From Ostreococcus lucimarinus (taxonomy: Eukaryota), in the NCBI GenBank assembly GCA_000092065.1, contig CP000583.1: a stretch of DNA of 64,000 nucleotides; one strand, written 5' to 3'. Shown in pieces: positions 26,307 to 42,327 of this stretch. A program made the position numbers and the translations under genes. Below the pieces are notes generated by a model. It was not told where the DNA came from, made no database searches, and saw only the letters and a program-made list of their open reading frames with translations. Position 1 is the first letter of the stretch; each line of letters opens with the position of its first letter.

Positions 26307-26317
26307 CGCCGCGCGCG

Positions 26318-27631
26318 ATGCCGCCGCCGCGCGACGCGCGCCGCGGGGTGTTCGAACGCGACGCGCTCGTCGCGTTCGTGCGCGAACGCGCGTCGTGCGA
26401 CGCGGAAAAGGCGGAGAAACACGCGAAGACGCTGCGACATCGCTGCGCGGTGGCGTGTCGCGGCGGCGCGATGACGCTCGATGACGTCGAGAACGTGCGC
26501 GCGCTGGGGCTGCCGCGCGCGGTGGTGGACGCGCTGAGAGCGAACTTTGTGCTGTACACGACGAAAGTGCGACACGAGTCGCGGTCGGGGGATGGGACGA
26601 CGACGAAGATGATCGTGGAGCTCGCGGGCGGGGACGTCGTGGAGGCGTGCGTGATGCGACACGCCAAGGGAAGGACGACGCTGTGCGTGAGCTCGCAGGT
26701 CGGATGTAAGATGGGATGCACGTTTTGCGCGACGGGAACGCTCGGAGAGCTCGGGAATCTGAGCGCGGGGGAGATTTGTGAACAGTTGGCGCACGCGAGT
26801 CGAGGCGACGCGGTGAGAAACGTCGTGTTCATGGGGATGGGCGAACCGTTGAATAATTACAGAAACGTGATCGACGCGATCGAGGCGATGACGAGCGATA
26901 AGGGGTTTGGATTGTCGCCGGCGAAAATAACGGTGAGCACGGTGGGGGTGATTCCGAGGATGCGGACGCTGCGGCGAGACGCGCCGGGGACGCGCTTGGC
27001 GCTGTCGCTGCACGCGCCGAACCAGGCGCTGAGACAAAAGATTGTGCCGACGGCGACGGCGTACAAATTGGAGGATTTAATGGCGACTTTGGATGAGCAC
27101 ATGGCCAGTGGACCAAAGATGAAGACGATGATCGAGTATTGCGTCTTGGGAGGCGTGAACGACGACGAGGCGTGCGCGCGAGAGCTCGGCGCCCTGTTGC
27201 GCGGTAAGGAGGTAATCGTGAACTTGATACCGTTGAACCCGACGGATACGCCGGCTGGGCACGTGCCGCCGACGCGCGAGGCGGTGCAAAAAATGTTGGA
27301 AATTTTGACGTCGCCGGAGTTCGATTTGTTCACCACCGTGCGTCACGAGATGGGGCAAGACATCGCCGGGGCGTGCGGGCAACTCGCGCTAAAGACGCCC
27401 GATGCGCCGGACATGGAGGACATGATTGCGCCCAAGAAAAAGACGCGTGCGGTGGCGAAGAAGTTCAAATCATCATCTTCGTCAACGAAATCACCCGAAG
27501 AATTAAGTATTTCGTCTTCGGTGGTGCCATCGCGAGATTGGTCTCGAGTCGAGTGCGCGCTCGTCGCCGCCACGGCGTTGAGCGCCGTCGTCTTGGCGGT
27601 GACGATATCGAACCGAAAAGCCCGAGCGTAG
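26318..27631 (+). CDS. rlmN: Radical SAM RNA methyltransferase, RlmN/Cfr family, with a C-terminal hydrophobic tail
   Basis: The radical-SAM cluster is CVSSQVGCKMGCTFCATG (CxxxCxxC). ...NVVFMGMGEPLNNY..., ...ALSLHAPNQALRQKIVP... and the conserved Cys355 region are present. The C-terminal ...WSRVECALVAATALSAVVLAVTISNRKARA is a predicted TM anchor. Confidence 0.85.
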   Translation: MPPPRDARRGVFERDALVAFVRERASCDAEKAEKHAKTLRHRCAVACRGGAMTLDDVENVRALGLPRAVVDALRANFVLYTTKVRHESRSGDGTTTKMIVELAGGDVVEACVMRHAKGRTTLCVSSQVGCKMGCTFCATGTLGELGNLSAGEICEQLAHASRGDAVRNVVFMGMGEPLNNYRNVIDAIEAMTSDKGFGLSPAKITVSTVGVIPRMRTLRRDAPGTRLALSLHAPNQALRQKIVPTATAYKLEDLMATLDEHMASGPKMKTMIEYCVLGGVNDDEACARELGALLRGKEVIVNLIPLNPTDTPAGHVPPTREAVQKMLEILTSPEFDLFTTVRHEMGQDIAGACGQLALKTPDAPDMEDMIAPKKKTRAVAKKFKSSSSSTKSPEELSISSSVVPSRDWSRVECALVAATALSAVVLAVTISNRKARA

Positions 27632-27740
27632 CACTAGCGATGTAATTTTACAAGTAGGATAGGAAATCAAATGTGTCGCTGAGTTTCGCGAGAACTCACA
27701 TCGTCGGCGTCGGTTAAGTGATTGTGCATCAAATCGTCCA

Positions 27741-30700
27741 TCAAATCATCGCCCGGTCGTCGTCGCCGTGCGCGTCGAGCACATCCAAAGCAAAACGTCC
27801 ATCAGGACAATCTCGAGACCTAGTCGCTATGAACGTTCGACCGAGGTTGTCAATAGACCACATGCTTGCGTTTTCAAAATGCTTACGATCCGATCGTCGC
27901 ATCGTTTCGTCCACTTCGGGCATCCACGACGCGTCGTCGTCGAACGGAGCCAACGTGAGGAAATCCGTTCGTACGCACGTGACCAGGTCTTTCTTGGGCG
28001 GTTCGACACCTTTGACGACGACGGCACCAAGGGCGCGGAATCTCGCGGGAGCCACGGGCATCCACACCGTAAAATCGGACTGCTCGCGATATATGAGCTC
28101 AAATCGAACTGGTGGACTGAGCACAACGCTGTTGCCGCCGCTTCGTAAAACCATACTCACAGGCTCGGACGGAGGATTTGTGCCACCGATGACGTGACCG
28201 AACGCGATGTACTTATCTACTGGTGGGATGGGTGCCCAAAAACACGTCTGACCTCGGCTTACCACGCATTTCCAGTTGACACAAGGCATGTATGGAGGAA
28301 GAGGTTCGCCGTCGTCGTCGTACTCGTCCTCATCAAACTTTGAGTTTGATCGTCGCGTCATTTCGTCTGCAATCATCGCCGTCAGCTCCTCCGGTTGATT
28401 CGTACCAGGAGTCGTTTTGATCACACGTGTGATTCGTTGCTTTTCGAAAAGTCGCTTCTTTCGACTGTACTCTTTTAGGTGCAGTACACAATTCGCCGGG
28501 GCTTGCACTTCGACGTGAAGTAACTCGTGCCATCCCACGTGCCAAAGGGCGACGTACTTGTCTGCCGCCGTTCGTTTCAACGTCACCACGCGCTGATCGG
28601 TGAGAACGATCAAATAAGCCCTCGAGTTGACCTCAACGCTTCCGAGATACTTGTCTCGGCCGTAGTACCCTTTGTGTGTGAACACTTCATCGATTCCACC
28701 GCCCAACTTTCCTCGCTCGGCGGTCCGCAATGCGCGCTGCGAGCGCGCGGCGTTCGCGTCGTACGTGCGCAAAATACCGTCGGCATGCTGAGCGCGAGGT
28801 TCCCGAATTCGATGTTGCGGCGCCGACGAGTTAACGCCAAGCGCACTTTTCACTCCATCGACACCCGACGCAATACCTTCCGCAGTTCGACCTACGGCGG
28901 CTAAACCGCCGGCGATGGGTTGCGTCACGGCTCCAACCAAACCTTTACCGACACCTTTGACGAAGCCAAGCGCGCCGCCTTTCGTAGCACCTTCGATCGG
29001 TTTTCGGAAAACCCCGGTAAAACCTCGGAAGACGCCCTTGGCGAGCATCTCGGTGCCGGAAGCTAAACCATTTTTGATGGAATCAGCCTTTTGGGCGTCG
29101 GGTCCAAGCGTAGCGTTCATAGAGTGCGAAAACTTTTTGTCAAGACTTAAAGCGGCGACTCCCGCGGACGCCTGACTAAGCGCCTGTGAAAACGAGTCCA
29201 AAACATCGACACCGACGAGCAACAAGAGTGCTTGTCTGGCGACTTGTCGAGAGTAAGAATCCGATATCATCCTCATGAAGGCTTGCTCGAGCGTGCGCAC
29301 TCTCCTTACTCGAAGCGCATGCAGATACAATTGACCGTCATCGATGTTTACGAAAGCCATGCCAGCCATAAAAGCAGGCATCGCGTGCTTCGGCCTTGAA
29401 TAAAGCGCAGAACGGAATCGCAATCGCAATTTCAGTTCACTCACGTGGAAGCTACCGATAGCTATCGGAAGGTTGACGACTTCGAGACGTTCTCCTCCAT
29501 CTTTTGATGACGTCGTGTTCATCACCTCTGAAAAGTTTACCAGTCGCCAAATGAGCGGTTCGTGCACGGCGAGTTGCACGTCAAGCGGAGCGAAGGTAAC
29601 GTCGATGAATGGATAAATGCGCATTTCCAACCCAGCAGATGTCTTGGTGACCACTTTAACGGTCAAGAATGAATGTTCTCGCGTGTCCCCAAGCAAACGC
29701 ACGACGACAGGATACTGAGAGCCATCATTCATATCGTCGACTTGTAATGATTTCACCGTGAGTGCCATGCGTTCAATTCCCCCACCGACGCCTGAGAGAT
29801 ACTCGAAACCAACGCCACTGGTAGTGCAATTGATAATTTCACTCATCGCACCATCGACAATAGCAAGGCTGCTTTCTGTGATAAGCACTGAGATGCGCGA
29901 CTCCGTCGAGCTCGCGCGGCTTGCGGAGACCAAATGCTTGGAGACTGTCGAGCTGCCGTATGACTTGATACGCACAATACGCCTTCCTCTTCTTAACCGA
30001 CGGGTGACCGGCAGGAAATTGAAGTAAACTGAATCACCACCGTCAATGTCGAGTTCCGCCGTCGTCTTCAGCTCGATCTTTGGTACGGGCAAACCGGGCA
30101 ACATTTCGTTCTCTGTTCCGAGATCCAAGTGGTCGAAATCATAGACGCGTTGAATCGAACTTTGAAACGAGCCTTTCTGAAGCACTCGCACTGCAAGTTT
30201 TCTCGCATCTCGCGGTCGAGACCACGCGAAAGCTTTCGCTGATTGCGGAGGTACCACGATCCACGCTTCCAAATTGTCTTCAATCGCACAAGCTTGTCTG
30301 AAGGCGACGAAATCGACATCGCTGGCGTTCTCAATGAGAATGTTTGCGGTGAAACGAGGTTCGATCGCACAGCTGACTCTTGACACTCCGAGTTTTGACG
30401 TATCCAAATGTAAACTCAACAAATCGAACTCTTCGGGATTGACTGAACTCCGTATCGGGATTTTCATGGAATCCTTGATCGTCTTGATGCCGTACAAGTC
30501 TATCGGAGCAGACCATTTTGCGTGTGGAAGTTTGATTCGAACCAAACCGTCGTCGTTCGCGGTTTGCATCTTCAGAGGCACGGTGATATCAGTCGCCTTC
30601 AAAATTAGTGCGGAAGCGTCTTTGTCATCAGAACTTTGAGCCAGCAAAATATCCATGCCAGTTTGATTCGTAACCGTACATCGCGGCTCAATGAAAACAA

Positions 30701-33700
30701 CCTGCGCGCCCTCCTTCGAGTATTCACTGCCAGTTTCCATTCGCACCGTGAGAGAGTAGAAAGAACCATCTTTGCAAAGTGCTCGCACGACGACGGCGCC
30801 ACGAAGAAGTTCGCGTTCATCTATGGGAATGCCAGGCGATAAATGTACGTGAGCGTTCGAATTGTCGATGCCAACTTCAAGCATGATTACTTGGTTCTCC
30901 TTTGGCGCTTTGCGAATCGCGCAATGATGAAGCGATTGAATGCCTCTCTTGGATTTTGGAGCGTAAGTTTCGACCATTTTGACTTTAGAAATAGACGAAT
31001 CCTCATCCGTTGACGGTATTTCCATCGTCGAAGTTCTAATGGCGAGATTGACACCGCTTTTGTTCACTATGATCAAGGATGCGGAGAAAACTGTTTTGCG
31101 CGCAGAGCGCGAGAGGAAACCAAAGTCAGTGCGTGCGTCCAAAACCGCAGTCCTTCCGTCTGAGCTCCGCAAATTCACTTCATCTAACGAAGTCGCATCA
31201 TCATCAGTTTTGACTGCATCAGTTAATGGCATTTCGAAAGCATCAAAAGCATCCAGTGTTCCGGCTGACGCCAACGCTTCGACCGCCATCGGGGACACTG
31301 GTATCAAACGTCTCGGAGGAACCATGACTTCGAAACCATCATCAAGCGCGAGACGCAAGTAATACGGCGTTTCAGGATGCACACTGTGTATCGGTAGAGA
31401 GTTCCAAGGGGTGATGGTCGCAGTGCTTATCGCCTTGACGCTCAGCGGTGTATCTACTTGTCCTTGAAACACAGTCAGCGTCATCGTATGCGGAGAATGA
31501 TTTGTGATGATGTGCGGAGCGCCGGCAGTGATTTTCCACTCCATTGCCTCTGGGTTGAGGTTGTAATATCCGTCTTCCAATAGCTCACAGTCTTCGAAAC
31601 CTGTACCATCATCTGCAGCTTTACAGTCAGGTGTGACCGCGTCGGCTTCGACTTGAATGCCGATGAATCTGTTTTTACCCTCAGCGTCGGTTGTGCAAGC
31701 AATTTCGGCGCCTTCCATGGCACTATGAATCATACAAGACCACGTGCTTCCATGGTCGTCGACATTTGCCCCCCATGATGATTGTCCTCGCAATGTGATG
31801 TTACGCACAAACAGTTCCGCTCGGGCATCCGGTCCAATAATCGCGGGAATCAATCCCACGGTTTCATTTGGCTTGACGACAACACTCTGACGAAGCGCAG
31901 CGTCATCTTCGGCGTCGAGCACGACTGGTCGATTTTCTTCGATAGGCACTCGTCGACGAACCCAGCGACGCATGCGCACCATAGATAAAGGGCCTTGCTG
32001 TCGGTTGTCGCTAAACGGATATTTCAGATCTGGTAAATTTATCGCGTATGCCCAGCCTTCCGAATCGGTGTTTTCACCGACGTGCACTTCCCACTGGCCG
32101 TCCCACTTGAAATCTGCAGGCAGCAGTCTTGTAGTGAACTCGTCGATTGAGTTCGTGCTGTTAGCTCCTTGACCGTTTGACCACGCTTTGCGTTCGGTGG
32201 GAATCAAATGTTTTGACGAAAAACCAGCGAGGGGTATTCTGCGCTGATTCTCGAAAACTTCTTCGTAGATGCGTTTTGGTCGTTTCTTCGTCGACGCACG
32301 ACCTGGTTTGTCATCGGGATGCATTCCCGCCGGACAAATACAAACTTCAATGTCATTTGACGTAGTGTTTATGAACGTGGCCATCGGTTTGAACGTGCAA
32401 ACGCTCGGACCAGAGGATTTTGCGATGCACCGGGAAGACTTTCCATCAATAATTTGTGCCGCATTCCACACGCGAGCGTCAATCGATTTCCATGGACCGT
32501 GAGGTGCAAAAGCTATGCAAACTTCAGAATCACCTTGATTCGAATCATCATTGCTCGCATGCTCACGCTTGCTGTCTAATTCTACAAACTCGACTCGCAC
32601 CTTCACTTCGAGCGAACCGTCGTCGTCCACGAGCGGAACTTTAATGACGCCTTCACCAATGTGAGAACGCTCTCCCGACACCGTCAGATTGCTGAAGAAA
32701 GACGCTAAAGTCATAGATTTTGTGGCGACACCATTCTCTGAGGATTCGATGTTGTGATCATCAGCAATGACCAATGTCACTAACACATCTTTCGCGTACT
32801 CTCGCCAGTGCGTCTTTGATGCGCGCGTGACGCGCGGAATGATTTGAAATTCTTCATTCCAATTGATGCGTGAATTTTGTGAATTCGACGTGATAGCGCG
32901 AGTTGTCACCTTGGTAGAGCCAAGACCGTCTGGAAACTCGAATATCATGCTCGCAACGATTTGCGACATTTCATCGTCAGTAGGGACATCGGCGGAAATC
33001 AGATGAATGTTTGCGGACCATTTCGCTCGCACCGGCATCTTTTCACTATTCTGCGATGATGTCAAAGGCGACGACGTGTCGTCTATCGGCAACGCGTATG
33101 ATTCAACATGTCGATTTGCTGTTCGAATCTCGCGTGATTCTCCAGGCTTGAGACAGACAGCCTCCGACGAGCCAACCCGCAAATACACGTCTTGATTCAC
33201 AAGGTGATTGTCGTAACGAATAGAGTCTTCATCGGCTGCCCGAAGTTCTGACACACCACTGGCGACCATAGTTGTCTGGTCTTGCCACTCACTCCAACGC
33301 AACATCGATGCTACGAATCTCTGCGAAACTGTCATGCAAAGAGGCGTGACGGTCTTTACTTGCACCGCCGTTCCTGCTGGCGCGGATTCATCGCCTGTAT
33401 CGCTGTACGAGAATTTCAAATAAGAATTCGTCGCATCAATGACGGGTTCCCAAACGTTGCGAGAACTGTTATAAGAGGAAACTGCTACGTTGAACATGGT
33501 GTTTCCATCCATACGCGTAGATGTACCGTTAACAACGAACGCAGTGTCTGACAAAGTGGCGCAGATGAGCGGGTATGAAAACGCCTCTCGCTCGAGTAGT
33601 ACAAGACTCACTCGCGGCATTGAAATCTTGAGAGAAACGTTCGGATCTTTGCCTTTTGACTTGTTCGCCCTGGCTCGAACGTAATCTAAAACAGATTGCC

Positions 33701-36700
33701 GCGGACGGAACTGTCGTGGAGCGATTGCTTTGTCTAGCTTCGAGAAATGAAATAACCCCCACCGCGGAAGCTGATCGAGAGGTGCATCCGGATCCGAACT
33801 CCACAACTGACAGTGCGAACTATGCGCGCTCCAGAGCGCGTCTTGAACGAATATCGCGTCATGCGCCAACTGAGTTGGGTCAGTACATATCCCCTTTCTC
33901 GAAACTTCAATAGCCAAGTCTTGACGTAAGCACGCGCAAGTGGTCAGTTGCGGTGGGTTTTTAGTGTCATTTGTTACGACGTCGCCACAGGAAACGTAAC
34001 CTTGCGGATTAATTGGACGCCACACGGCGTGCGTTCCGCTATCGCCTTGGCGTATGGACCCAACCAATACGAATCCGATCGGCGAAGCGATAATGTCGCT
34101 ATCTTCTGCCACTGCGAGCACACCTGCAGTCGGCGGTTCTGGCCCAGCGATGAGACAGTCGCCGAGCGATACGTATCCTTGCGGCGGTCGGGGGCGCCAA
34201 ATCGACGCCTGGCGACTTCCTTCCGGTTTTTCGTCTGACCATAAAATTTTGAAGTCATACGTCGTCACTGTTTGTAGCATATCTGTACTGTCCATCGAAA
34301 TATTATCTTCTAAAATCTGCTCGGCGTCTGCGATGAGTGGAAACGGTTCGGGTAGCAAGGGCGACGACAAGTCCGCCGCCGTCATGGGATCGAAACCGTC
34401 TGCAAATGCCTGAAAAGTTCGTGGTCCGTTTTTAACTTGTCTTAGATACGCGGATGACGTCTTGTGCGAAATGCACGCACTGTAGTACGCCTCGTTGACA
34501 ACCTCAGCGCGCATGCATCGCATCACATCGAGAGGTGGTGGCTCTTCGTCGGAGGTCACAACGCATCCGAGCGAACAGTACCCGTCCGGAGGAATTGGGC
34601 GCCAAACCACCGACTTTTGCGTTTCACCTTCAAACGCACACATGCGGTGAAACTCTACCGGAGCTTTCGTCAAACCATCAGCGTCTGTGATGACTACGAC
34701 TGGTCGCGTGGGCGGCGTTTCGTCGAGAGTCACGCAGTCGCCTAAGAGCGTAAATCCGGGCGGCGGAACAGGACGCCAGAAAAATGCACCACCTTCTCCT
34801 CCACCTACGCGTACGAAAGTTGAGCATGAGACAGTTTGGTTATACAAACCAGTTGACTGAAGCGTTGCCGTGAACCCTTTGGAGAGCGAAGTAAGTCGCT
34901 CGATAGACTGTGCGTCGAGGACAAAATCAGCGTCTGTGGCTCGCATCATCATTTCCATATCGTCCGCCGTCGCCTGCATGCGTCCGTCTATGTCGATCGG
35001 TCTTAGCACGATACTGGAGTCGAACATGTTTCCTTTTGAGCTCCATTCACTCACCGCGACCTGGAACTGCGTGAACGCAAACGCGGCATCTTGCTTGCTC
35101 TCGGCGGAGGTATATTGAAATTCTGCGTCGGTGCGCATGCGCAACACATAATCCGCTGCTCCGCTTGAGGTATCTAAGAAAATAAGCTCAACTCCAGGCA
35201 TCGACGCCTTGACGTTGTAATCGAACGAAGAAGTTCCCGCGGTAGCGAGGGAGTTCTCACTTCCGCGCCGCGACTTGGTACGATTTTCGTGTACAATGAC
35301 GACACCATCCACCTCTTCCGCGCTCAATTGAGAATCCGCCTCCAACTGCACGAAGTCACTCAGCTCGGAGCCGATCGGGATGATGATTCGCACATTCGTC
35401 AGCTTGAGGTGCCTCGCCGCAGCAATATATATCAACGGCGTGTTTGAAACGTGGAAGACGAGCTCGCGCCCATTGCCATTCAACTCCACTTCTTTGGCTC
35501 CCTCGGGTGCGTTGCAAAGGATGCGCGTCGACGAGCTCAAGTCGAAGTCTTCCTCGAGCGTCAAGGACGCCCGTGTTCCGAAATTCAAGTCTTGCCTCAA
35601 GCGAGCGTTCACAAGTCCTGATTCAGATTCGTCTTCTGATGTATTCGAGAAGAAGTTGTAGATTGCCAAGCCGAATTGCGGATCGTACATCATTCTGCAA
35701 TCTTGGAAAAAGACGTCGCAGTCGTAAGACGTTGACGATTGCTTTGCGTCGACGCGAAACAAAGTCTTGGTAGAAGTCGAGCCATGACTCGACCCAAACA
35801 CTTGTTGGGCTCTCGTCGGAATCCCGACTCTTAAATCATTCAGCGCTAAGTCCGGGCAGATCACTGAAACAGACATCTCGCCGTCTTTGTCCTTCCTGTA
35901 GCCGACGTGCATATTGTCAATTTGAAACGCCGCGAGGGGTTTATTTCGTTTCGGTTTGGCCGAAGCAAATGTCACCATTCGCATTTTATTCACGTTCATC
36001 GACATCAGCATGTATGGTGCGCCGAACTTATCGTTTAAATTGCCCGACTCGACGGAAACAATTTCAGCAATTTGGTATAAAGGCTGCGGGACGGGGACAA
36101 CTTCTGCAAAATTTTCCACGGAAAGTGCTGTGAGGACCCGATATTCAAAATCGGACATTTCGACTTTCGTTTCGTTCAAAAAATCAACGACAATCTCGTA
36201 GCTCGGCGATCGACTTTTCGGGTCCCATTTCGGGCTACGAACATAGACATCGAGCGCCATGTCGCGCTCCGGAATCATGGACGTCGTCTTTTTAAATTTG
36301 TCCCACACACAAGCCGAGCAACGAAAAAATGAAACGTTCGTTGAATCCAAGAGCACGGCTCCCACATCTAAATGCGACTTACCTCCTTCCCATTTTAGTT
36401 TATTGTTAACCCTTATGCACTCGGCATCCATAGAAAACGCTTGATCGGAGGTGCTGCTTCGTGGAAAGATGAGTTCAGGCCTCTCCATTTCGACGGCGTA
36501 AATCATCGTGAAAGGCCTCGGGTCGCCTCGCCGCAACAGCTCTGCATTTCTCTCCGACTCTGGAAGTGCACTTACAGGGAGTGGTGGTGGTGTAAACATA
36601 GACGTATATCCCATCAGTTTCTGGATGAATGCATACATGACAATCATCTTGACATCATGGAATTTGACGCGAACGTCGTATTCGTATCCTGGGAAGTTTG

Positions 36701-39700
36701 ACGCAAGATGGTTGTACATGAAGACATCAATCTGCGTGCGACTGGTATTTGATGCATCAGATGAATTCAAGTCGATGAATTGTCGATACGCATTGTCTTT
36801 CGGCGCAGTCTGATCACCCACGCGAAGGTTTCCGAGCGACATAGAAACTTCTTGCACGGCGGCTTTCGAGTTCATCTCCAACTGCAAATCATCCATGCAG
36901 CAATCAAACAGAGGTTGAAGACTCGACGCTTCTTCTTCTTTTTCGAGATATGCCATGATGACGGTGGAATGAAAATGAAGTAACATTTGGAAACTGATTC
37001 GATCCGAATCCTCGTCGATGAGGCCGCCGAAGGACGCTACTTTTGTAATTGCCTCAGTGTCTGTCGATGAAAACGCCGCCAAGATGACCTTGATTTCCTC
37101 TTGCATGCGATACAGTGAACCGATGGTCGGTCTGTGAAGCGCGAAGCTGATATTCTCGGTATCCAAGCACATTGTTGTACTGATGTTGTTGTATTCTGGT
37201 GAACTTTCGCTTAATTCCTTGTATTTGAGTCGAACTTTCACGTCATCGCGCGCGTGCGCACTCATAAGACGCATGGTTTCGGTTGTACCGCAAAGCTTGT
37301 CCACGATATCCATGCTCGATACCTCCATGACAAACTCTCGGCTATGTTCTTTCGTTTGAACGCTGATCAAAGCCGATGTAGAGCTGAGCTCTGCGACAGG
37401 GATTTCCGTGGATTCTGCCAAGTTGCGATCCAACAGCCTCGCCACACCACCATTTTCTAAACCATCACACTTCGCTCCGGGAATACCCATTGGCTGGCCA
37501 GAAAGATGCACGGACACGCTTCCTAGCTCCATTGTGAGCACAGAGTCTACGACATCTTCCTCGTCGAAGTCCCGATTAAGATTTTCAGAAGTTTCTTCCT
37601 CGACAATAGCTTTCGTAGATGATTGTACCGCTCTCGTGGCCACAGCGACTTCATTCATATCCTGAAGCCATCGCTGCCACTTTGAATGCTCTTGTTCGTC
37701 AGCAAAACGGAATAGCCAAGTATTGTTCGTATCACGCGCGCGTGATTTCGGCGTTTTCGAATCGTGGATCGCCAAAATTAAATTCTGCTTTTCTCCGTCT
37801 TCCTCGTCTTCCAAAACGGTTACTCTAACGCTGTAGCCGATGCGAACGAAATCAATGTAACCCGCCGCATCGGGTTTTTCTAAAATGTACAAGTACGGAC
37901 CTTGAATACACAACCAGCGACTGTGGTAACCGCTCGCGCCACCAACTAGACCCACTTTCTTCGCAGAGGCGGCACCGCTGATGAGCGCATCTGACCAAGG
38001 TTTCGCATCAATTGCGGCGGTGCTGCCGGCATCCTCAGATAATGCCATGGAACTTTGCTTTGCGGACGATGTCATCTGCATGGTCGCGTATACCCGTGCC
38101 ATTTTCGACGGCGACATGTACATCTGAAAAGCACTTAAAGATATTTGCACTTTTGAACGAGGTCCAACTTCAGGTGTCCATCCGGCGCCTTGCATCGCAA
38201 AACGCATTTTGGCGTCACACGGGGCAAGGAGTGTTTCGCAGACTTGATCGAGCGACGTCGACACCGAGTTCCCCCAATCGAAATCCGACGGCGCGAGAAA
38301 CACGGCCGTATCCCTACTGGCGACGGCAAACGTCTGGTACACTGGCGCGCCAGTTTTGCGATCAAAACTCACCGATGGATCAAGTGGATCGGCCACCATG
38401 GTAAAATGACCGAAATCCACCAACGTTTGGAACGCCACTCGACCTCGTCGGCGAACTGGAATTGTCACCTTTGGCGCGTGAATGTCGAACGTCATGGCAA
38501 CTTTATTCAACGCTTCAGTGGTTGATTCTTTTGCTTCTTCAAGCTTAATCATCGCCTCATCCACTTGGAGCGCAAAATTTGTTTGGACTAATTCTTTTGA
38601 GCTAAAAAAGTTGCGCAGTTGGTCGACGGTTTGTCCATCAAAGACAATGTACACCGGAGAAAGCTTGACATCCACGTTGGCATCGAGATCGTGTTCGAGT
38701 GGGTAGGCGTTGTGCTTGACTTCGAGCGCGTGTTTACGCAACGACGCTCCTACTCCGCTCGACAATATTCGATCATTCGTAGTCTCGCACGTCCAACTGT
38801 TAATGGTGAAATACGTGTTTGATTGATCCTTGTACGTCTTCGTCAAGATCTTCGCGCCAATCATACTTGAATTCAAAACGAGACGCTCTTTATTGTGATC
38901 ATCGTGATCGGTGAGCTCCATGGAAAGCTTTTTCATCGATCCTCTGAATTCCATGCCGAGTTCCTTTGGGTCGAAATCCTCTTCCTCCACGCCGCCGCGC
39001 ATGAGCTCTTCCAGCTTGCTCCAGTCGTCGTTTGACATTTCCAGCGACTTAGCCGTCAACTCCGTCGACGATTGCCACATCCACGAAAAATAGCCCGATT
39101 TTTCCGATTCTTCTTCTTTCAACATAAGAATAACATCGCCTCTAGCTTTTGAGGCGAGAGAAGGCGGTCGTCCGTCGGTGCTCGCGGCTTTCGATTTGCT
39201 ATGAGCGATGCAGCGCCAGGCGAGCGCGACTTCAAAGTCGATGTTGCGCTCTATCTCGTGTACTCGATTGATAAACTCAGCGTTTGATGCGCTACCCTCC
39301 GCTATGTATATGGAAAGATATTCACGCCTTAACGCTCCGGTCTCTTGGATATTGCGCCATTCGAAAGTCCCTAAAACGTTCTTCTTTCTCGCCGAGACGG
39401 CGCACTTGGCGTACGTCCACCACGCGCGCGGTTGAGCTTTGACGCTCACCATCGGGCGAAACTCGGCGTGCGGCAATCGCAAGCGATACTGATTGAAGGC
39501 CTCTAGCAAGCGGACCGTACTGCGGTATTGATTACGACTCAACGCCATGCGCGCGTCTTGAAACTTCAAGTCACACATTTGCCTCGGTTCACCCGCCTCG
39601 GTTTGTTCTTTTCGTCCTTTGCGGTGATAAAACAGTTCCACCGTCACCGGGTACAACATGTAGTTTCGCACATCGCTCGGCGCTTCTCCGACCAACCCTA

Positions 39701-40469
39701 CGCCAAATAGTGCCCACCACGCCTCTGTGTCTTCCACTTTCGGCGGCGTCCATCCCGCGTGCGTTTTCCACGGTCGATACACCGCCCCCGAGTCGAGATA
39801 CATTGAAAAGTTTTCCAACGCCACGCGCTTGTGAATGCGTTCCAGCGACCCTCCCGCGACGAACGTCGGCTCCCCAAAATCATCCACCGTGATCGCGCTC
39901 AACTTTCCTATCGTCATTCCGCACGAAAACGTGTGCCCAGGCGTCGTGATTTCATCCTCGTACCGCACGTGTACGTTTTGCACCGTTATTTGTAAATTTC
40001 CCAGCACCGTGTTTAACGTCTTCCAAAACCAACTATCCGATCTCTCCGCCTCCTCCCGCATCGTCTTCGTCATCTTCCCCATCGCCGTCCTCAACCAATC
40101 TCGCTCTCCCTCATCGATTCGTTTCTTCTTCTCCGCCGCGTCTTCCTCCTCGTCTCGCGTCTCGTCCGCCGTCGCCGCCGCCTCCTCCATCGTCACCCTC
40201 GACGCCAGCACGAACACTCGATCGATCTCCACCACCACCGGTTCGCGTCCGAGGTTCATCCACGGCACCTTCAACCGCAGCGACCCGACGCATCCCGCGT
40301 CGACCGTCACCGGCGCGCGCAGCGTCGACAGCGCCGTTTTTTTCAGACGAACGTTTCGCAATTCGACGTCGCCGTTCCACGCGGACACGCGCAGTTTCTC
40401 GCCGTCGATGCCGTCGCAGTACGCGCCGAGCGCCTTATTCAGGGCGTCGGCGAGGTACTGCTCGAACAT
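27741..40469 (-). CDS. VPS13: VPS13-family bridge-like lipid-transfer protein (4241 aa) encoded by a single 12.7-kb exon
   Basis: The N-terminal Chorein_N is MFEQYLADALNKALGAYCDGIDGEKLRVSAWNGDVELRNVRLKKTALSTLRAPVTVDAGCVGSLRLKVPWMNLGREPVVVEIDRVFVLA, against yeast/human Vps13 MFE..VA.LLN..LG.YVEN...QL...IW.G.V.L.NL.LKK.AL..L.LP..V..G..G.L.L.IPW.NL...PV.V.I. The ORF is uninterrupted. Confidence 0.9.
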   Translation of the reverse strand: MFEQYLADALNKALGAYCDGIDGEKLRVSAWNGDVELRNVRLKKTALSTLRAPVTVDAGCVGSLRLKVPWMNLGREPVVVEIDRVFVLASRVTMEEAAATADETRDEEEDAAEKKKRIDEGERDWLRTAMGKMTKTMREEAERSDSWFWKTLNTVLGNLQITVQNVHVRYEDEITTPGHTFSCGMTIGKLSAITVDDFGEPTFVAGGSLERIHKRVALENFSMYLDSGAVYRPWKTHAGWTPPKVEDTEAWWALFGVGLVGEAPSDVRNYMLYPVTVELFYHRKGRKEQTEAGEPRQMCDLKFQDARMALSRNQYRSTVRLLEAFNQYRLRLPHAEFRPMVSVKAQPRAWWTYAKCAVSARKKNVLGTFEWRNIQETGALRREYLSIYIAEGSASNAEFINRVHEIERNIDFEVALAWRCIAHSKSKAASTDGRPPSLASKARGDVILMLKEEESEKSGYFSWMWQSSTELTAKSLEMSNDDWSKLEELMRGGVEEEDFDPKELGMEFRGSMKKLSMELTDHDDHNKERLVLNSSMIGAKILTKTYKDQSNTYFTINSWTCETTNDRILSSGVGASLRKHALEVKHNAYPLEHDLDANVDVKLSPVYIVFDGQTVDQLRNFFSSKELVQTNFALQVDEAMIKLEEAKESTTEALNKVAMTFDIHAPKVTIPVRRRGRVAFQTLVDFGHFTMVADPLDPSVSFDRKTGAPVYQTFAVASRDTAVFLAPSDFDWGNSVSTSLDQVCETLLAPCDAKMRFAMQGAGWTPEVGPRSKVQISLSAFQMYMSPSKMARVYATMQMTSSAKQSSMALSEDAGSTAAIDAKPWSDALISGAASAKKVGLVGGASGYHSRWLCIQGPYLYILEKPDAAGYIDFVRIGYSVRVTVLEDEEDGEKQNLILAIHDSKTPKSRARDTNNTWLFRFADEQEHSKWQRWLQDMNEVAVATRAVQSSTKAIVEEETSENLNRDFDEEDVVDSVLTMELGSVSVHLSGQPMGIPGAKCDGLENGGVARLLDRNLAESTEIPVAELSSTSALISVQTKEHSREFVMEVSSMDIVDKLCGTTETMRLMSAHARDDVKVRLKYKELSESSPEYNNISTTMCLDTENISFALHRPTIGSLYRMQEEIKVILAAFSSTDTEAITKVASFGGLIDEDSDRISFQMLLHFHSTVIMAYLEKEEEASSLQPLFDCCMDDLQLEMNSKAAVQEVSMSLGNLRVGDQTAPKDNAYRQFIDLNSSDASNTSRTQIDVFMYNHLASNFPGYEYDVRVKFHDVKMIVMYAFIQKLMGYTSMFTPPPLPVSALPESERNAELLRRGDPRPFTMIYAVEMERPELIFPRSSTSDQAFSMDAECIRVNNKLKWEGGKSHLDVGAVLLDSTNVSFFRCSACVWDKFKKTTSMIPERDMALDVYVRSPKWDPKSRSPSYEIVVDFLNETKVEMSDFEYRVLTALSVENFAEVVPVPQPLYQIAEIVSVESGNLNDKFGAPYMLMSMNVNKMRMVTFASAKPKRNKPLAAFQIDNMHVGYRKDKDGEMSVSVICPDLALNDLRVGIPTRAQQVFGSSHGSTSTKTLFRVDAKQSSTSYDCDVFFQDCRMMYDPQFGLAIYNFFSNTSEDESESGLVNARLRQDLNFGTRASLTLEEDFDLSSSTRILCNAPEGAKEVELNGNGRELVFHVSNTPLIYIAAARHLKLTNVRIIIPIGSELSDFVQLEADSQLSAEEVDGVVIVHENRTKSRRGSENSLATAGTSSFDYNVKASMPGVELIFLDTSSGAADYVLRMRTDAEFQYTSAESKQDAAFAFTQFQVAVSEWSSKGNMFDSSIVLRPIDIDGRMQATADDMEMMMRATDADFVLDAQSIERLTSLSKGFTATLQSTGLYNQTVSCSTFVRVGGGEGGAFFWRPVPPPGFTLLGDCVTLDETPPTRPVVVITDADGLTKAPVEFHRMCAFEGETQKSVVWRPIPPDGYCSLGCVVTSDEEPPPLDVMRCMRAEVVNEAYYSACISHKTSSAYLRQVKNGPRTFQAFADGFDPMTAADLSSPLLPEPFPLIADAEQILEDNISMDSTDMLQTVTTYDFKILWSDEKPEGSRQASIWRPRPPQGYVSLGDCLIAGPEPPTAGVLAVAEDSDIIASPIGFVLVGSIRQGDSGTHAVWRPINPQGYVSCGDVVTNDTKNPPQLTTCACLRQDLAIEVSRKGICTDPTQLAHDAIFVQDALWSAHSSHCQLWSSDPDAPLDQLPRWGLFHFSKLDKAIAPRQFRPRQSVLDYVRARANKSKGKDPNVSLKISMPRVSLVLLEREAFSYPLICATLSDTAFVVNGTSTRMDGNTMFNVAVSSYNSSRNVWEPVIDATNSYLKFSYSDTGDESAPAGTAVQVKTVTPLCMTVSQRFVASMLRWSEWQDQTTMVASGVSELRAADEDSIRYDNHLVNQDVYLRVGSSEAVCLKPGESREIRTANRHVESYALPIDDTSSPLTSSQNSEKMPVRAKWSANIHLISADVPTDDEMSQIVASMIFEFPDGLGSTKVTTRAITSNSQNSRINWNEEFQIIPRVTRASKTHWREYAKDVLVTLVIADDHNIESSENGVATKSMTLASFFSNLTVSGERSHIGEGVIKVPLVDDDGSLEVKVRVEFVELDSKREHASNDDSNQGDSEVCIAFAPHGPWKSIDARVWNAAQIIDGKSSRCIAKSSGPSVCTFKPMATFINTTSNDIEVCICPAGMHPDDKPGRASTKKRPKRIYEEVFENQRRIPLAGFSSKHLIPTERKAWSNGQGANSTNSIDEFTTRLLPADFKWDGQWEVHVGENTDSEGWAYAINLPDLKYPFSDNRQQGPLSMVRMRRWVRRRVPIEENRPVVLDAEDDAALRQSVVVKPNETVGLIPAIIGPDARAELFVRNITLRGQSSWGANVDDHGSTWSCMIHSAMEGAEIACTTDAEGKNRFIGIQVEADAVTPDCKAADDGTGFEDCELLEDGYYNLNPEAMEWKITAGAPHIITNHSPHTMTLTVFQGQVDTPLSVKAISTATITPWNSLPIHSVHPETPYYLRLALDDGFEVMVPPRRLIPVSPMAVEALASAGTLDAFDAFEMPLTDAVKTDDDATSLDEVNLRSSDGRTAVLDARTDFGFLSRSARKTVFSASLIIVNKSGVNLAIRTSTMEIPSTDEDSSISKVKMVETYAPKSKRGIQSLHHCAIRKAPKENQVIMLEVGIDNSNAHVHLSPGIPIDERELLRGAVVVRALCKDGSFYSLTVRMETGSEYSKEGAQVVFIEPRCTVTNQTGMDILLAQSSDDKDASALILKATDITVPLKMQTANDDGLVRIKLPHAKWSAPIDLYGIKTIKDSMKIPIRSSVNPEEFDLLSLHLDTSKLGVSRVSCAIEPRFTANILIENASDVDFVAFRQACAIEDNLEAWIVVPPQSAKAFAWSRPRDARKLAVRVLQKGSFQSSIQRVYDFDHLDLGTENEMLPGLPVPKIELKTTAELDIDGGDSVYFNFLPVTRRLRRGRRIVRIKSYGSSTVSKHLVSASRASSTESRISVLITESSLAIVDGAMSEIINCTTSGVGFEYLSGVGGGIERMALTVKSLQVDDMNDGSQYPVVVRLLGDTREHSFLTVKVVTKTSAGLEMRIYPFIDVTFAPLDVQLAVHEPLIWRLVNFSEVMNTTSSKDGGERLEVVNLPIAIGSFHVSELKLRLRFRSALYSRPKHAMPAFMAGMAFVNIDDGQLYLHALRVRRVRTLEQAFMRMISDSYSRQVARQALLLLVGVDVLDSFSQALSQASAGVAALSLDKKFSHSMNATLGPDAQKADSIKNGLASGTEMLAKGVFRGFTGVFRKPIEGATKGGALGFVKGVGKGLVGAVTQPIAGGLAAVGRTAEGIASGVDGVKSALGVNSSAPQHRIREPRAQHADGILRTYDANAARSQRALRTAERGKLGGGIDEVFTHKGYYGRDKYLGSVEVNSRAYLIVLTDQRVVTLKRTAADKYVALWHVGWHELLHVEVQAPANCVLHLKEYSRKKRLFEKQRITRVIKTTPGTNQPEELTAMIADEMTRRSNSKFDEDEYDDDGEPLPPYMPCVNWKCVVSRGQTCFWAPIPPVDKYIAFGHVIGGTNPPSEPVSMVLRSGGNSVVLSPPVRFELIYREQSDFTVWMPVAPARFRALGAVVVKGVEPPKKDLVTCVRTDFLTLAPFDDDASWMPEVDETMRRSDRKHFENASMWSIDNLGRTFIATRSRDCPDGRFALDVLDAHGDDDRAMI

Positions 40470-40657
40470 CGTCGCCCGAGCCGTCGCGCGCGCGCGACGG
40501 TCTGAGACGCCAGGGTGGATTAATGCGGGCAGACGGTTACAGCGGTCGGTCGGTCGGTCGGACAGCGCTGGACGGGCGCGACGCGACGCGACGCGACGCG
40601 GACGCGCGATGGAGCGCGGCGGCGGCGACGAATGCGATGTTATCTCACCGTGCTATC

Positions 40658-41431
40658 TCACTGGAGTCCCATGTCGCGCTTCAACTCGGCGAGCATGTCG
40701 TCCACGGTTTGCGACGTGACGCTCGGCGCGGGCGACGGTTTCTTCGGTTTGGGTTTCGGCGGCGGCGCGGCGCGACTAAACTCCGTCTCCGACGTGGGCT
40801 TCGGTTTCGGCGCGGCGTCCTCGAGGAAATCCACGAACTCCTCGCCGATTTCGTAGAGCTCTTCCCAGAGGGATTTCGGGGCGGCGCCGGCGGGGCGCGC
40901 GGCGTCTCGCGCGGCGAGCTCCTTCTCCAAGTCGCGGAAAAAGTCGCCAAAACCATAAAATTCTTCCTCCTCTCGCGCGCCCGCCGCGCGCGCACCGGAC
41001 GACGACGGCGACGCGCGTGACGACGACGCGCGCGGTGCTCGAGCGCCGCTCGTCGCGCGCGTCCACGCATCGCTCCAATCCGTCGCCGTCGCGCGTCCCC
41101 GGGACGTCGCCGCCGCGTCGTACGCCTCCCGCCTCGCCGGGTCCACGAGCACGTTATACGCCTCTTTCACCTCGTTGAACCGCGCCGACGCGTCGGGCGC
41201 TTTGTTCACGTCCGGGTGCAGCTCGAGCGCGCGCCTGCGGTAGGCGGATTTGATCTCCTTCGTCGTCGCTTTCGGGGACACGCCCAGGAGATTGTACAGG
41301 TGCCGCGCCGAGTCACCGCCGCGTGACGTCGACGCGGCGGCGTGCGTGGCGCGACGCGCGCGTCGCGCGGTGACGCTCGCGCGTCTCGGCGCGACGTCGA
41401 GGGCGACGGCGCGAGCGCACGCGCGCGACAT
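40658..41431 (-). CDS. J-domain (DnaJ-like) protein with an organellar transit-like N-terminus and a Pro/Lys-rich C-terminal region
   Basis: The J domain is HLYNLLGVSPKATTKEIKSAYRRRALELHPDVNKAPDASARFNEVKEAYNVL, with the HPD motif. Confidence 0.8.
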   Translation of the reverse strand: MSRACARAVALDVAPRRASVTARRARRATHAAASTSRGGDSARHLYNLLGVSPKATTKEIKSAYRRRALELHPDVNKAPDASARFNEVKEAYNVLVDPARREAYDAAATSRGRATATDWSDAWTRATSGARAPRASSSRASPSSSGARAAGAREEEEFYGFGDFFRDLEKELAARDAARPAGAAPKSLWEELYEIGEEFVDFLEDAAPKPKPTSETEFSRAAPPPKPKPKKPSPAPSVTSQTVDDMLAELKRDMGLQ

Positions 41432-41517
41432 CTCGGCGGGGCGAGGCGCGCTGAGAGGCGACGCGACGCGTCGACTGAGATTTTACGCGTCGTGACAAAA
41501 CGAGGAAAAAGTACTAT

Positions 41518-41889
41518 TTAGGCCGCCGGATCGCTCGCGCGAATGTCTCGCTCGGCGCTCGCGATGGCGTCGCGCAGCGCGCTCACGGGTGCCTTGGCGA
41601 ACAGACTCGCCGGGTACACCGCGCTGCCCCACGTCGGATGCAAAACCACCTTGCAGCACCCGCTGTTGGTGGTTTGATAATTCAAAAGCGTCACCAACGC
41701 GTCCACCTCGCCGTACACGTGTTGCGAATCGCGATTGATCATCGACAACCCGCTGCACGGATCGATGTAATCGCACCAATACCCACCCGCGCGAAGCGCG
41801 TCCGTCACGCGTTTCGCAAAGTCGACGAAGCGCTCGAGACAGAAATCCTTTTCGATGTCCACGTTTTCCCCGGTCTGCACCAAATCCAT
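41518..41889 (-). CDS. MMADHC: MMADHC (CblD)-like cobalamin-trafficking protein, C-terminal exon
   Basis: ...VDIEKDFCLERFVDFAKRVTDALRAGGYWCDYIDPCSGL...NSGCCKVVLHPTWGSAVYPASLFAKAP matches human MMADHC ...[38 protein letters not shown]...[25 protein letters not shown]. Confidence 0.7.
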   Translation of the reverse strand: MDLVQTGENVDIEKDFCLERFVDFAKRVTDALRAGGYWCDYIDPCSGLSMINRDSQHVYGEVDALVTLLNYQTTNSGCCKVVLHPTWGSAVYPASLFAKAPVSALRDAIASAERDIRASDPAA

Positions 41890-42301: not shown

Positions 42302-42327
42302 GTCTCGCGCCGTCGTCGCGTCGCGCG

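What the first reader, a model, noticed from the sequence alone, without database searches (positions are those of the whole stretch)
27741..40469. 12.7-kb single-exon VPS13 gene sitting in a sharp low-GC trough
An uninterrupted 4241-codon ORF is remarkable in itself. It also coincides with a compositional discontinuity. Spot counts give about 52% GC inside the gene (for example 30001-30060 and 33001-33060). The flanks 12-27 kb and 41-57 kb give 70-80% (for example 56401-56460 at about 82%). The boundaries fall within a few hundred bp of the gene ends (27.7 kb and 40.5 kb). This may be selection or expression-linked GC3, gBGC, or different evolutionary origin or age.
Basis: seen in the sequence. 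Interest (0 to 1): 0.5.

Follow-up and report, generated by a model that had tools for sequence, protein, structure and literature searches.

The report
Long VPS13 gene outruns 5' GC zone
The low-GC stretch is real, but it is an ordinary length effect: every gene in this Ostreococcus region is GC-rich only in its first kilobase, and the 12.7-kb VPS13 gene lies mostly beyond that zone.

Summary
The window matches Ostreococcus lucimarinus CCE9901 or a near-identical strain. The 27741-40469 (-) ORF is a complete, uninterrupted 4242-aa VPS13 gene. The trough is real: GC is 0.51 between breakpoints 27451 and 40050, against 0.62 on both sides. The flanks are a 53-76% sawtooth, not 70-80%. The 5' breakpoint lies about 420 bp inside the gene, and the 3' side is gradual.

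All about 27 genes start GC-rich (GC3 about 0.84) and decay over 1-1.5 kb. Promoter spacers are 71-81% GC and 3'-3' spacers mostly 25-44%. VPS13's first 100 codons are as GC-rich as any neighbour's. One decay curve fits all genes, VPS13 included (residual -0.02). A curve fitted without VPS13 explains about 53% of its GC3 deficit, and the remainder is 1.6 among-gene SD. Amino-acid make-up (GC1 and GC2) supplies 44% of the total GC deficit.

The trough and the convergent neighbour gene are conserved in O. tauri, three other Ostreococcus lineages and Bathycoccus, so foreign origin is rejected. The gradient is mainly a coding-strand G and CpG gradient, so biased gene conversion alone cannot explain it. 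This is an ordinary case of a known phenomenon, and interest is low.

The parts
27741..40469 (-). Complete single-exon VPS13 coding sequence (4242 aa plus stop)
   Evidence: ORF found. Pfam VPS13_N 277 bits (cut-off 80), Vps62 111 bits, VPS13_C 51.8 bits and VAB 29.9 bits, all above their cut-offs. PDB matches to VPS13C, VPS13A and a fungal Vps13 N-terminus. The identical 4242-aa ORF is called on many marine metagenome contigs.
27451..40050 (.). Low-GC plateau, the 'trough' (GC 0.510)
   Evidence: Maximum-likelihood two-breakpoint segmentation, log-likelihood ratio statistic 502. GC3 is 0.47-0.56 in most 150-codon bins beyond codon 600.
39570..40469 (-). 5' compositional zone of VPS13 (first ~300 codons): GC-rich, G-rich at third positions and CpG-rich, as in every other gene
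   Evidence: GC3 is 0.84-0.90 in the first 100 codons. G at 4-fold sites is 0.60-0.77 in codons 0-300 and 0.26-0.35 afterwards. NCG makes up 0.86-0.91 of NCN codons.
40470..40657 (.). Spacer upstream of VPS13 (promoter side), GC 0.71, with a CGCGA repeat at 40577-40606
27632..27740 (.). Convergent 3'-3' spacer between VPS13 and the RlmN-like gene, GC 0.44
   Evidence: Six of the eight convergent spacers in the window are 0.25-0.44 GC. The two exceptions (0.56 and 0.63) may hold uncalled genes.
26318..27631 (+). Convergent neighbour, a radical-SAM RlmN/Cfr-like gene. Its 3' part continues the low GC and its 5' end is the next GC peak.
   Evidence: Pfam Radical_SAM. GC3 by bin is 0.85, 0.78, 0.72. 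The convergent arrangement with VPS13 is conserved in O. tauri, three other Ostreococcus lineages and Bathycoccus.
40658..41431 (-). Upstream neighbour, a DnaJ-domain gene on the same strand
   Evidence: Pfam DnaJ. GC3 is 0.87 and 0.80.
38394..40469 (-). VPS13_N (chorein) region, aa 1-692
   Evidence: profile positions 1-722 of 1317. PDB entries 6cbc, 9yrm and 9yg4 match this N-terminal region.
33891..34355 (-). Best-scoring Vps62 stretch, aa 2039-2193 (one of three stretches)
   Evidence: 111 bits for the whole protein against a cut-off of 22.1.
31956..32288 (-). Pex24p-type domain, aa 2728-2838, similar to a TECPR1 domain
   Evidence: 29.1 bits against 26.8. (8p5p_A, E = 8e-8).
30210..31193 (-). 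VPS13 adaptor-binding (VAB) domain, aa 3093-3420
   Evidence: 29.9 bits against a cut-off of 22.6.
28455..28808 (-). VPS13_C domain, aa 3888-4005
   Evidence: 51.8 bits against 21. The C-terminal part of VPS13A matches nearby.

Best explanation
The trough is the interior of a very long gene in a genome where base composition depends on distance from a gene's 5' end.

Shown here. In this Ostreococcus lucimarinus region, the first 0.9-1 kb of each transcription unit, together with the promoter spacer, is GC-rich, rich in G on the coding strand and CpG-rich. Beyond that zone composition relaxes with a length scale of about 1-1.5 kb towards GC3 of about 0.5-0.55. Most genes are 300-700 codons, so they lie largely inside the 5' zone. 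They are packed 25-300 bp apart, so the flanks average 62% GC. VPS13 has the same 5' zone, but 93% of its 4242 codons lie beyond codon 300. The 14.1 kb between its start codon and the next one (26318) is by far the longest interval without a gene start in the window. A second, smaller contribution comes from the protein itself: it has fewer Ala, Gly and Arg residues and more Ile, Val, Ser, Asn and Met, which lowers GC1 and GC2.

Inferred mechanism of the gradient. A process centred on the transcription start raises G+C against an AT-biased mutation pressure. The mutational equilibrium GC in O. tauri is 0.37 against a genomic GC of 0.59. I think the most likely cause is a combination of two things. 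One is promoter-proximal GC-biased gene conversion. The other is a transcription-linked strand asymmetry of the kind seen downstream of start sites in plant, fungal and CpG-island promoters. The trough itself has no function.
For: Gradient in all genes. GC3 in the first 150 codons is about 0.83, falling to 0.62-0.66 by 2-3.5 kb. The likelihood-ratio statistic is 250 against a flat model for the 26 other genes. Six of the eight hold-out genes outside the window (all that span two or more bins) fall in the same way.

VPS13's own 5' end is typical. GC3 is 0.84-0.90 in the first 100 codons. A fit to VPS13 alone gives a start of 0.90, an asymptote of 0.54 and tau of 550 nt.

Non-coding DNA follows the same geography. 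Divergent spacers are 0.71-0.81 GC and most convergent spacers are 0.25-0.44. GC1 and GC2 also fall with distance. The effect is therefore regional, not codon-specific.

One common curve (start about 0.84, asymptote 0.54, tau 1.5 kb) fits all 27 genes. The VPS13 residual is -0.02, and the among-gene residual SD stays at 0.054. When VPS13 is excluded from the fit its residual is -0.084, or 1.6 SD. Two ordinary genes are lower, at -0.096 and -0.126.

Interior codon usage lies on the host continuum. The RSCU correlation is 0.81 with the distal parts of other genes and 0.61 with their proximal parts.

The trough is stable and old. The convergent RlmN-like/VPS13 arrangement and a GC3 deficit of 0.10-0.22 hold in O. 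tauri, three other Ostreococcus lineages and Bathycoccus. Against a 95%-identical relative, 4-fold divergence is flat along the gene (0.10-0.14) and exchanges between G/C and A/T are close to symmetric (110 against 99).

Literature. 5'-3' GC gradients and their link to gene length are described in plants (PMC4684703). AT-biased mutation and evidence for gBGC are reported in Mamiellophyceae (PMC5455958; PMC5498103; PMC8557840).
Against: Extrapolating from the other 26 genes alone predicts GC3 of 0.64 for VPS13, against 0.56 observed. At matched distances of 450-2500 nt VPS13 is 0.07-0.10 below the pooled others. A gene-specific component such as low expression is therefore not excluded.

Only five genes of about 870 codons or more were available, and none exceeds 1400 codons, so the plateau level is defined by VPS13 itself.

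On the proposed mechanism, the gradient is almost entirely in coding-strand G. At 4-fold sites G falls from 0.56-0.62 to about 0.3, while C does not fall. Strand-symmetric gBGC does not predict this.

In Bathycoccus the neighbours show only a weak gradient (0.61 to 0.55), yet VPS13 is 0.17 lower. That comparison rests on two genes.
Confidence: 0.75

Rival explanations
1. Gene-wide weak codon selection. VPS13 is expressed at a low level, so selection for the GC-ending optimal codons of Ostreococcus is weak along the whole gene.
For: Codon bias rises with expression in O. tauri (rho = -0.22) and optimal codons are GC-rich (PMC3673656). At matched distance from the start, VPS13 is 0.07-0.10 lower than the pooled other genes.
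Against: The first 100 codons of VPS13 have GC3 of 0.84-0.90, as high as any neighbour. Non-coding promoter spacers and GC1 and GC2 follow the same geography, which codon selection cannot explain. The residual after the gradient is within the among-gene spread. No expression data were available.
Confidence: 0.15
2. Protein make-up. A giant beta-groove lipid-transfer protein needs many residues encoded by AT-rich codons, and that alone makes the gene GC-poor.
For: GC1 is 0.552 against 0.625 and GC2 is 0.434 against 0.499. Together they account for 44% of the total GC deficit. Gly+Ala+Arg+Pro make up 0.25 against 0.30 in the distal parts of other genes, and Phe+Tyr+Met+Ile+Asn+Lys make up 0.22 against 0.19.
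Against: The largest single component is at synonymous sites. GC3 is 0.559 against 0.737, and 4-fold GC is about 0.50-0.60 against 0.65-0.86. Amino-acid content does not dictate these. It is a real contributor, not a sufficient cause.
Confidence: 0.05
3. Foreign or younger DNA. The gene was acquired from a lower-GC donor and has not yet ameliorated.
For: The composition contrasts with both flanks.
Against: The 5' end has host composition. Codon preferences within each base class match the host's distal coding sequence. VPS13 is a universal eukaryotic gene, and the nearest non-Mamiellales hits are green algae. Orthologues with the same neighbour, the same orientation and the same low GC occur in O. 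tauri, three other Ostreococcus lineages and Bathycoccus. Composition is stationary against a 95%-identical relative.
Confidence: 0.01
4. Local loss of recombination, as in the low-GC mating-type region of the Mamiellophyceae 'big outlier chromosome', confined here to one gene.
For: Low-GC regions with suppressed recombination, 9-17% lower in GC, are known in these algae (PMC8557840; PMC5498103). The depth of the trough is similar.
Against: Those regions span 450-650 kb and many genes. Here the low GC covers 12.6 kb, starts inside one gene and follows the same decay seen in every neighbour. There is no sign of degeneration, since the ORF is intact in six lineages. No excess of G/C-to-A/T changes is seen (22 against 23 polarised SNPs).
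Confidence: 0.03
5. The gradient, and hence the trough, is caused by gene-body CpG methylation by DNMT5. Methylated CpGs downstream of an unmethylated 5' zone decay to TpG or CpA.
For: DNMT5-type enzymes are present in O. lucimarinus, Micromonas and Bathycoccus (PMC9861306). CpG observed/expected falls from 1.8 to 1.4 and TpG/CpA rises from 0.7 to 1.0-1.2 with distance from the start. NCG codons fall from 0.8 to 0.4-0.5.
Against: CpG is still over-represented in the interior, at 1.4 times expectation. G3 also falls outside CpG context, from 0.35-0.47 to 0.13-0.24. C3 not followed by G rises rather than falls. I could not read the primary methylome paper.
Confidence: 0.1

Closest known systems
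5'-to-3' GC (GC3) gradients along plant genes and the resulting dependence of gene GC on length (Wong et al. 2002; Glemin et al. 2014; Ressayre et al. 2015, PMC4684703)
   Same: GC3 is highest at the 5' end and declines along the coding sequence. All codon positions move in the same direction. Longer genes have lower mean GC. A recombination or gBGC gradient from the promoter is the usual explanation.
   Different: The genes here have no introns and spacers are tiny, so the gradient shows up as a genomic sawtooth. The decline is carried mainly by coding-strand G and by CpG rather than by G and C equally. I found no paper in the held library describing the intragenic gradient in Ostreococcus.
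GC skew and CpG richness downstream of transcription start sites in plants, fungi and CpG-island promoters (own knowledge: Fujimori et al. 2005; Ginno et al. 2012)
   Same: The first ~1 kb of the transcription unit shows an excess of G over C on the non-template strand and is CpG-rich.
   Different: Here the zone lies almost wholly in coding sequence and is read out at synonymous sites. R-loops and methylation state were not testable.
Low-GC outlier regions of Mamiellophyceae chromosomes (candidate mating-type locus on the big outlier chromosome; small outlier chromosome)
   Same: A GC drop of about 10 points in the same group of algae, attributed to reduced gBGC.
   Different: Those regions are hundreds of kb long and multigenic. 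This one covers one gene, is explained by distance from 5' ends, and has normal flanks.
VPS13 family of bridge-like lipid-transfer proteins (yeast Vps13, human VPS13A-D, plant VPS13s)
   Same: N-terminal chorein region, VAB domain, VPS13_C region, and a length above 4000 aa.
   Different: It carries Vps62 and Pex24p-type (TECPR1-like) domains in the middle. The middle-region profile scores below its cut-off (15 bits against 50).

Membership tests
VPS13 (bridge-like lipid-transfer protein) | N-terminal chorein / VPS13_N region at the very N-terminus | tested here: met
   PF12624 scores 277 bits against a cut-off of 80, covering aa 1-692 and profile positions 1-722. PDB 6cbc, 9yrm and 9yg4 match aa 1-340, 1-491 and 1-660; 9yqp (VPS13C) matches aa 138-661.
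VPS13 (bridge-like lipid-transfer protein) | VAB (adaptor-binding) domain and VPS13_C region near the C-terminus | tested here: met
   PF25036 scores 29.9 bits against 22.6. PF25037 scores 51.8 bits against 21. The VPS13A C-terminal chain matches aa 3762-3923.
VPS13 (bridge-like lipid-transfer protein) | Long repeating beta-groove middle region | tested here: inconclusive
   PF25033 VPS13_M scores only 15.1 bits against a cut-off of 50. No structure prediction was run.
VPS13 (bridge-like lipid-transfer protein) | Bulk lipid transfer between membranes | not testable with these tools
   Biochemical property.
5'-3' GC gradient / gene-length effect | GC3 declines with distance from the start codon in most genes of the genome | tested here: met
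   For the 26 other genes the likelihood-ratio statistic is 250, with a start of 0.85 and tau of 0.9 kb. Hold-out genes agree. The same holds in O. tauri (0.83 to 0.66). Only about 85 kb of the genome was sampled.
5'-3' GC gradient / gene-length effect | The low-GC gene has a normal GC-rich 5' end and falls on the common curve | tested here: met
   GC3 is 0.84-0.90 in the first 100 codons. The joint-fit residual is -0.02. The residual when VPS13 is excluded from the fit is -0.084, or 1.6 SD.
5'-3' GC gradient / gene-length effect | Non-coding DNA and all codon positions shift together (a regional process) | tested here: met
   Divergent spacers are 0.71-0.81 GC and most convergent spacers are 0.25-0.44. 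GC1 and GC2 decline with distance.
gBGC-driven gradient (mechanism) | Strand-symmetric enrichment of both G and C | tested here: not met
   At 4-fold sites G falls from about 0.6 to about 0.3, while C stays at 0.2-0.38.
gBGC-driven gradient (mechanism) | Recombination or conversion rate peaks at promoters, and A/T-to-G/C alleles are favoured there | not testable with these tools
   This needs a fine-scale LD map or site-frequency spectra. Only 51 polarised SNPs were available.
Horizontally acquired / foreign island | Absent from, or not syntenic in, related genomes | tested here: not met
   The gene has the same neighbour and orientation in O. tauri, three further Ostreococcus lineages and Bathycoccus.
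Horizontally acquired / foreign island | Atypical composition and codon usage along the whole unit | tested here: not met
   The 5' end is typical. The interior RSCU correlates at r = 0.81 with the distal parts of host genes.
Mamiellophyceae low-GC outlier (non-recombining) region | Multigenic block of hundreds of kb | tested here: not met
   The low segment is 12.6 kb and lies within one gene, with flanks at 0.62 GC. The sizes of the known regions come from the literature.

The most novel reading that the evidence does not exclude
The 5' zone of about 0.9 kb may be a discrete, undescribed compositional domain of Ostreococcus and Bathycoccus genes. In it, synonymous sites are driven to G on the coding strand and to CpG (NCG is 0.73-0.91 of NCN codons). 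That pattern points to a transcription- or chromatin-linked process rather than gBGC. If so, giant intronless genes such as VPS13 would serve as natural rulers. They would give both the decay length of the process and the composition reached without it (GC3 about 0.53, still well above the mutational equilibrium of 0.37).
Probability: 0.2. Interest if true: 0.45.

Novelty: new member of a known kind. Interest (0 to 1): 0.2.

Why it matters
The practical lesson is caution. In compact, intron-poor, GC-rich genomes, a sharp low-GC block over a long gene should not be read as foreign DNA or as a recombination desert before distance from 5' ends has been controlled. There is also a small positive yield. 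The window shows a very clean promoter-centred GC sawtooth in Ostreococcus, and the gradient is strand-asymmetric. That constrains explanations of why Mamiellophyceae genomes sit far above their mutational GC equilibrium. Finally, public gene models for this VPS13 are wrong in two reference genomes.

Tried and rejected
Searching homologues with the full 4242-aa protein timed out. Searches with the N-terminal 700 aa and the C-terminal 813 aa returned only short fragments (853 aa or less) and no full-length VPS13, not even the query's own cluster. That tool therefore could not supply orthologues directly.

The single metagenome scan returned only relatives at 95-100% identity. I reached more distant orthologues indirectly, by searching with the conserved neighbour gene and fetching its flanks. 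This covers only the 3' 9.9 kb of VPS13 in other species, not their 5' ends.

Micromonas-like loci (L016, L019) are not syntenic, so they say nothing about VPS13 there.

A model summing contributions from all promoters fitted slightly better on the 26 genes, but it did not reduce the VPS13 residual (-0.104).

The interior GC3 bump at codons 1500-1800 is not conserved in orthologues (r = 0.01-0.24), so I dropped it as a feature.

The polarised-SNP test is too small to decide anything (22 against 23).

No tRNA, Rfam family or tandem repeat lies inside the gene.

The primary methylome paper could not be retrieved. Seven literature searches found no description of an intragenic GC gradient in Ostreococcus.
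Full report
**Observation.** The window holds a single ORF at 27741-40469 on the minus strand, 4242 aa plus stop. Its GC is 0.515, against 0.623 to the left and 0.614 to the right. A maximum-likelihood two-breakpoint segmentation places the low segment at 27451-40050. GC there is 0.510 against 0.624 and 0.615, with a log-likelihood ratio statistic of 502 against a homogeneous model. Every 3-kb window inside the gene (0.528 or less) is lower than every one outside (0.547 or more). The trough is real.

Two parts of the description do not hold. First, the flanks are not 70-80% GC. They average 0.62, only 11% of their 1-kb windows reach 0.70, and 43% are below 0.60. Second, the boundaries are not at the gene ends. 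The 5' breakpoint lies about 420 bp inside the gene. On the 3' side GC rises gradually over 1.4 kb through the neighbouring gene.

**What the gene and the organism are.** Pfam finds VPS13_N (277 bits, aa 1-692, starting at profile position 1), Vps62, a Pex24p-type domain, VAB and VPS13_C, all above their cut-offs. Only the middle-region profile is below its cut-off. Solved VPS13C, VPS13A and fungal Vps13 chains match the N- and C-terminal parts.

Several window proteins are identical to Ostreococcus lucimarinus CCE9901 proteins on a 982,987-bp record. The identical 4242-aa ORF is called on many marine metagenome contigs.

The window is extremely compact. I count about 27 genes, almost all confirmed by Pfam, nearly all read as single ORFs, with spacers of 25-300 bp. 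An uninterrupted ORF is the rule here. No tRNA, Rfam family or tandem repeat lies inside the gene.

**The key result.** GC3 in 150-codon bins falls from the 5' end in nearly every gene. Typical values are 0.85 in the first bin and 0.60-0.70 by codon 600-900. The other long genes fall furthest before any rise at the 3' end:
- the 872-codon lectin gene, from 0.76 to 0.49;
- the MutS gene, from 0.79 to 0.57;
- the 953-codon glycosyltransferase, from 0.81 to 0.62.

VPS13 starts at 0.83, is 0.62-0.65 for codons 150-600, and then stays near 0.50 for 11 kb.

A logistic decay fitted to the 26 other genes is highly significant (likelihood-ratio statistic 250). It gives a start of 0.85 and tau of 0.9 kb. 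The hold-out genes just outside the window that span two or more bins (six of the eight examined) also fall.

Non-coding DNA follows the same geography. All seven divergent (promoter-promoter) spacers of 50-800 bp are 0.71-0.81 GC; an eighth nominal one (41432-42348, GC 0.65) contains the MMADHC-like gene. Six of eight convergent (3'-3') spacers are 0.25-0.44. GC1 and GC2 also decline with distance. The flanks therefore form a sawtooth with peaks at gene 5' ends. VPS13 is the one place where consecutive start codons are 14 kb apart instead of 1-4 kb.

**How much the gradient explains.** The other genes have mean GC3 of 0.737 and VPS13 has 0.559. The curve fitted without VPS13 predicts 0.643, which is 53% of the deficit. 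The residual of -0.084 is 1.6 times the among-gene SD of 0.054, and two ordinary genes have lower residuals. That curve's asymptote is poorly constrained, because no other gene extends beyond 3.5 kb and 4-fold GC is still falling there.

A single curve fitted to all 27 genes (asymptote 0.54, tau 1.5 kb) leaves VPS13 at -0.02 and does not increase the spread of the others.

Of the total GC deficit (0.620 against 0.515 in coding sequence), GC3 supplies 56%. GC1 and GC2 supply 44%. The GC1 and GC2 share reflects fewer Ala, Gly and Arg residues and more Ile, Val, Ser, Asn and Met than even the distal parts of other genes.

**Foreign origin is rejected.** Interior codon usage correlates better with the distal parts of host genes (r = 0.81) than with their proximal parts (r = 0.61). 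Preferences within each base class also match the distal parts.

I used the convergent RlmN-like neighbour as a handle and fetched the homologous loci in five other lineages:
- O. tauri (L013);
- three other Ostreococcus lineages (L014, L017, L018);
- Bathycoccus prasinos (L015).

In all five the same neighbour faces the 3' end of a VPS13 of 4250-4310 aa (the O. tauri model, 4601 aa, is fused to its neighbours) that is uninterrupted over the 9.8-9.9 kb recovered. GC3 of that part is 0.54, 0.68, 0.68, 0.56 and 0.42. Neighbouring genes have 0.76, 0.77, 0.78, 0.71 and 0.59.

A 95%-identical relative (L007) is colinear with the same GC profile. Its 4-fold divergence is flat along the gene, and G/C-A/T exchanges are close to symmetric (110 against 99). 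The trough is therefore old and at compositional steady state.

It is also unlike the known low-GC outlier regions of these algae, which span hundreds of kb.

**Mechanism of the gradient (inferred, not shown).** Mamiellophyceae have AT-biased mutation. The equilibrium GC in O. tauri is 0.37 against an observed 0.59, and gBGC or selection is invoked to explain the excess. Chromosome-scale evidence for gBGC exists. In plants the same kind of gradient and its link to gene length are attributed to a recombination and gBGC gradient running from the promoter.

The gradient here is strand-asymmetric. At 4-fold sites, coding-strand G is 0.52-0.62 in the first 300 codons (0.60-0.77 in VPS13) and about 0.3 later. 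C does not fall, and when it is not followed by G it rises. NCG codons fall from 0.73-0.91 to 0.4-0.5 of NCN codons, and G3 also falls outside CpG context. The same pattern holds in O. tauri, L014, L018 and Bathycoccus. The Micromonas-like locus L016 shows no gradient and has C-rich 5' ends.

CpG remains over-represented everywhere, at 1.4-1.9 times expectation, so simple methylation decay does not fit either. My best guess is promoter-proximal gBGC combined with a transcription-linked asymmetry of the kind known downstream of start sites in plants, fungi and CpG-island promoters. This guess rests on own knowledge and is not tested here.

**Verdict.** The low GC is an ordinary consequence of gene length in a genome with a strong 5'-centred compositional gradient, plus a contribution from amino-acid make-up. 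A modest gene-specific component such as low expression cannot be excluded without expression data. I found no paper describing the intragenic gradient in Ostreococcus. I therefore file it as a new instance of a known kind of phenomenon, of low interest. The strand-asymmetric 5' zone is the one point that may deserve a genome-wide look.

Noticed in passing
All genes in window 1-64000, e.g. 39570-40469 (-); also L013, L014, L015, L018: The 5'-3' GC3 gradient is mostly a coding-strand G and CpG gradient. At 4-fold sites G is 0.52-0.77 in the first 300 codons and about 0.3 later, while C does not fall. NCG makes up 0.73-0.91 of NCN codons early and 0.4-0.5 later. The Micromonas-like locus L016 shows the opposite, with C-rich 5' ends and no gradient.
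   Followed up: partly
Spacers, e.g. 12248-12297, 26232-26317, 56791-56852 (divergent); 5258-5330, 14826-14856, 45832-45907, 58149-58172 (convergent): Divergent promoter spacers are 0.71-0.81 GC, while most convergent 3'-3' spacers are only 0.25-0.44 GC. This is a very clean promoter-centred sawtooth.
   Followed up: yes
27741-40469 and 26318-27631; L013 11312-21140: Public gene models are poor. NCBI's O. lucimarinus annotation has only a 354-aa partial protein for VPS13 and a 298-aa partial protein for the RlmN-like gene. One O. tauri assembly (GCA_002158475) fuses DnaJ, MMADHC and VPS13 into a 4601-aa model.
   Followed up: no
41483-42348: The MMADHC-like ORF 41518-41889 (-) matches only the C-terminal third of its Pfam profile (positions 169-264 of 272). 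Another frame is open up to 42301, which suggests an intron or a frameshift. It overlaps the first ~230 codons of the long MutS ORF (41638-45831), whose first bin has low GC3 (0.56). The real MutS start is probably an ATG at 42328 or 42346.
   Followed up: partly
20948-23563 (+): A gene with four SUEL-lectin domains has the lowest GC3 at matched distance among the longer genes (0.49-0.57 mid-gene, residual -0.096). It is lower than VPS13 at the same positions.
   Followed up: no
58173-59393 (-): An ORF with no Pfam match has an inverted gradient (GC3 0.53, 0.68, 0.72) and the most negative residual (-0.126). The start codon or the gene model may be wrong.
   Followed up: no
33891-34355 and 31956-32288 (-): This VPS13 carries Vps62 stretches and a Pex24p-type domain similar to a TECPR1 domain (PDB 8p5p) in its middle.
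   Followed up: no
Whole window: CpG is over-represented everywhere, at 1.4-1.9 times expectation, although this lineage has DNMT5-type CG methylation. The excess is highest in the intergenic spacers taken together and at gene 5' ends.
   Followed up: partly
L014 11447-21395, L017 1996-11907: One Ostreococcus lineage (59% aa identity) has a much shallower VPS13 trough (GC3 0.68). Its GC3 climbs steadily towards the 3' end (0.55 to 0.78), and its neighbours show a weaker 5'-3' gradient.
   Followed up: partly
L019 5420-9406: A Micromonas-like contig has a local duplication. There are two RNA_pol_Rpc34 genes (5420-6322 and 8504-9406), with a radical-SAM fragment between them, next to the full RlmN-like gene.
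   Followed up: no
8055-8696 (+), 59293-59949 (-), 812-1312 (+): These ORFs show coding-like GC3 but have no Pfam match. The first overlaps the end of the gene at 6734-8116 by about 60 nt and lies in an otherwise long 'convergent' spacer.
   Followed up: no
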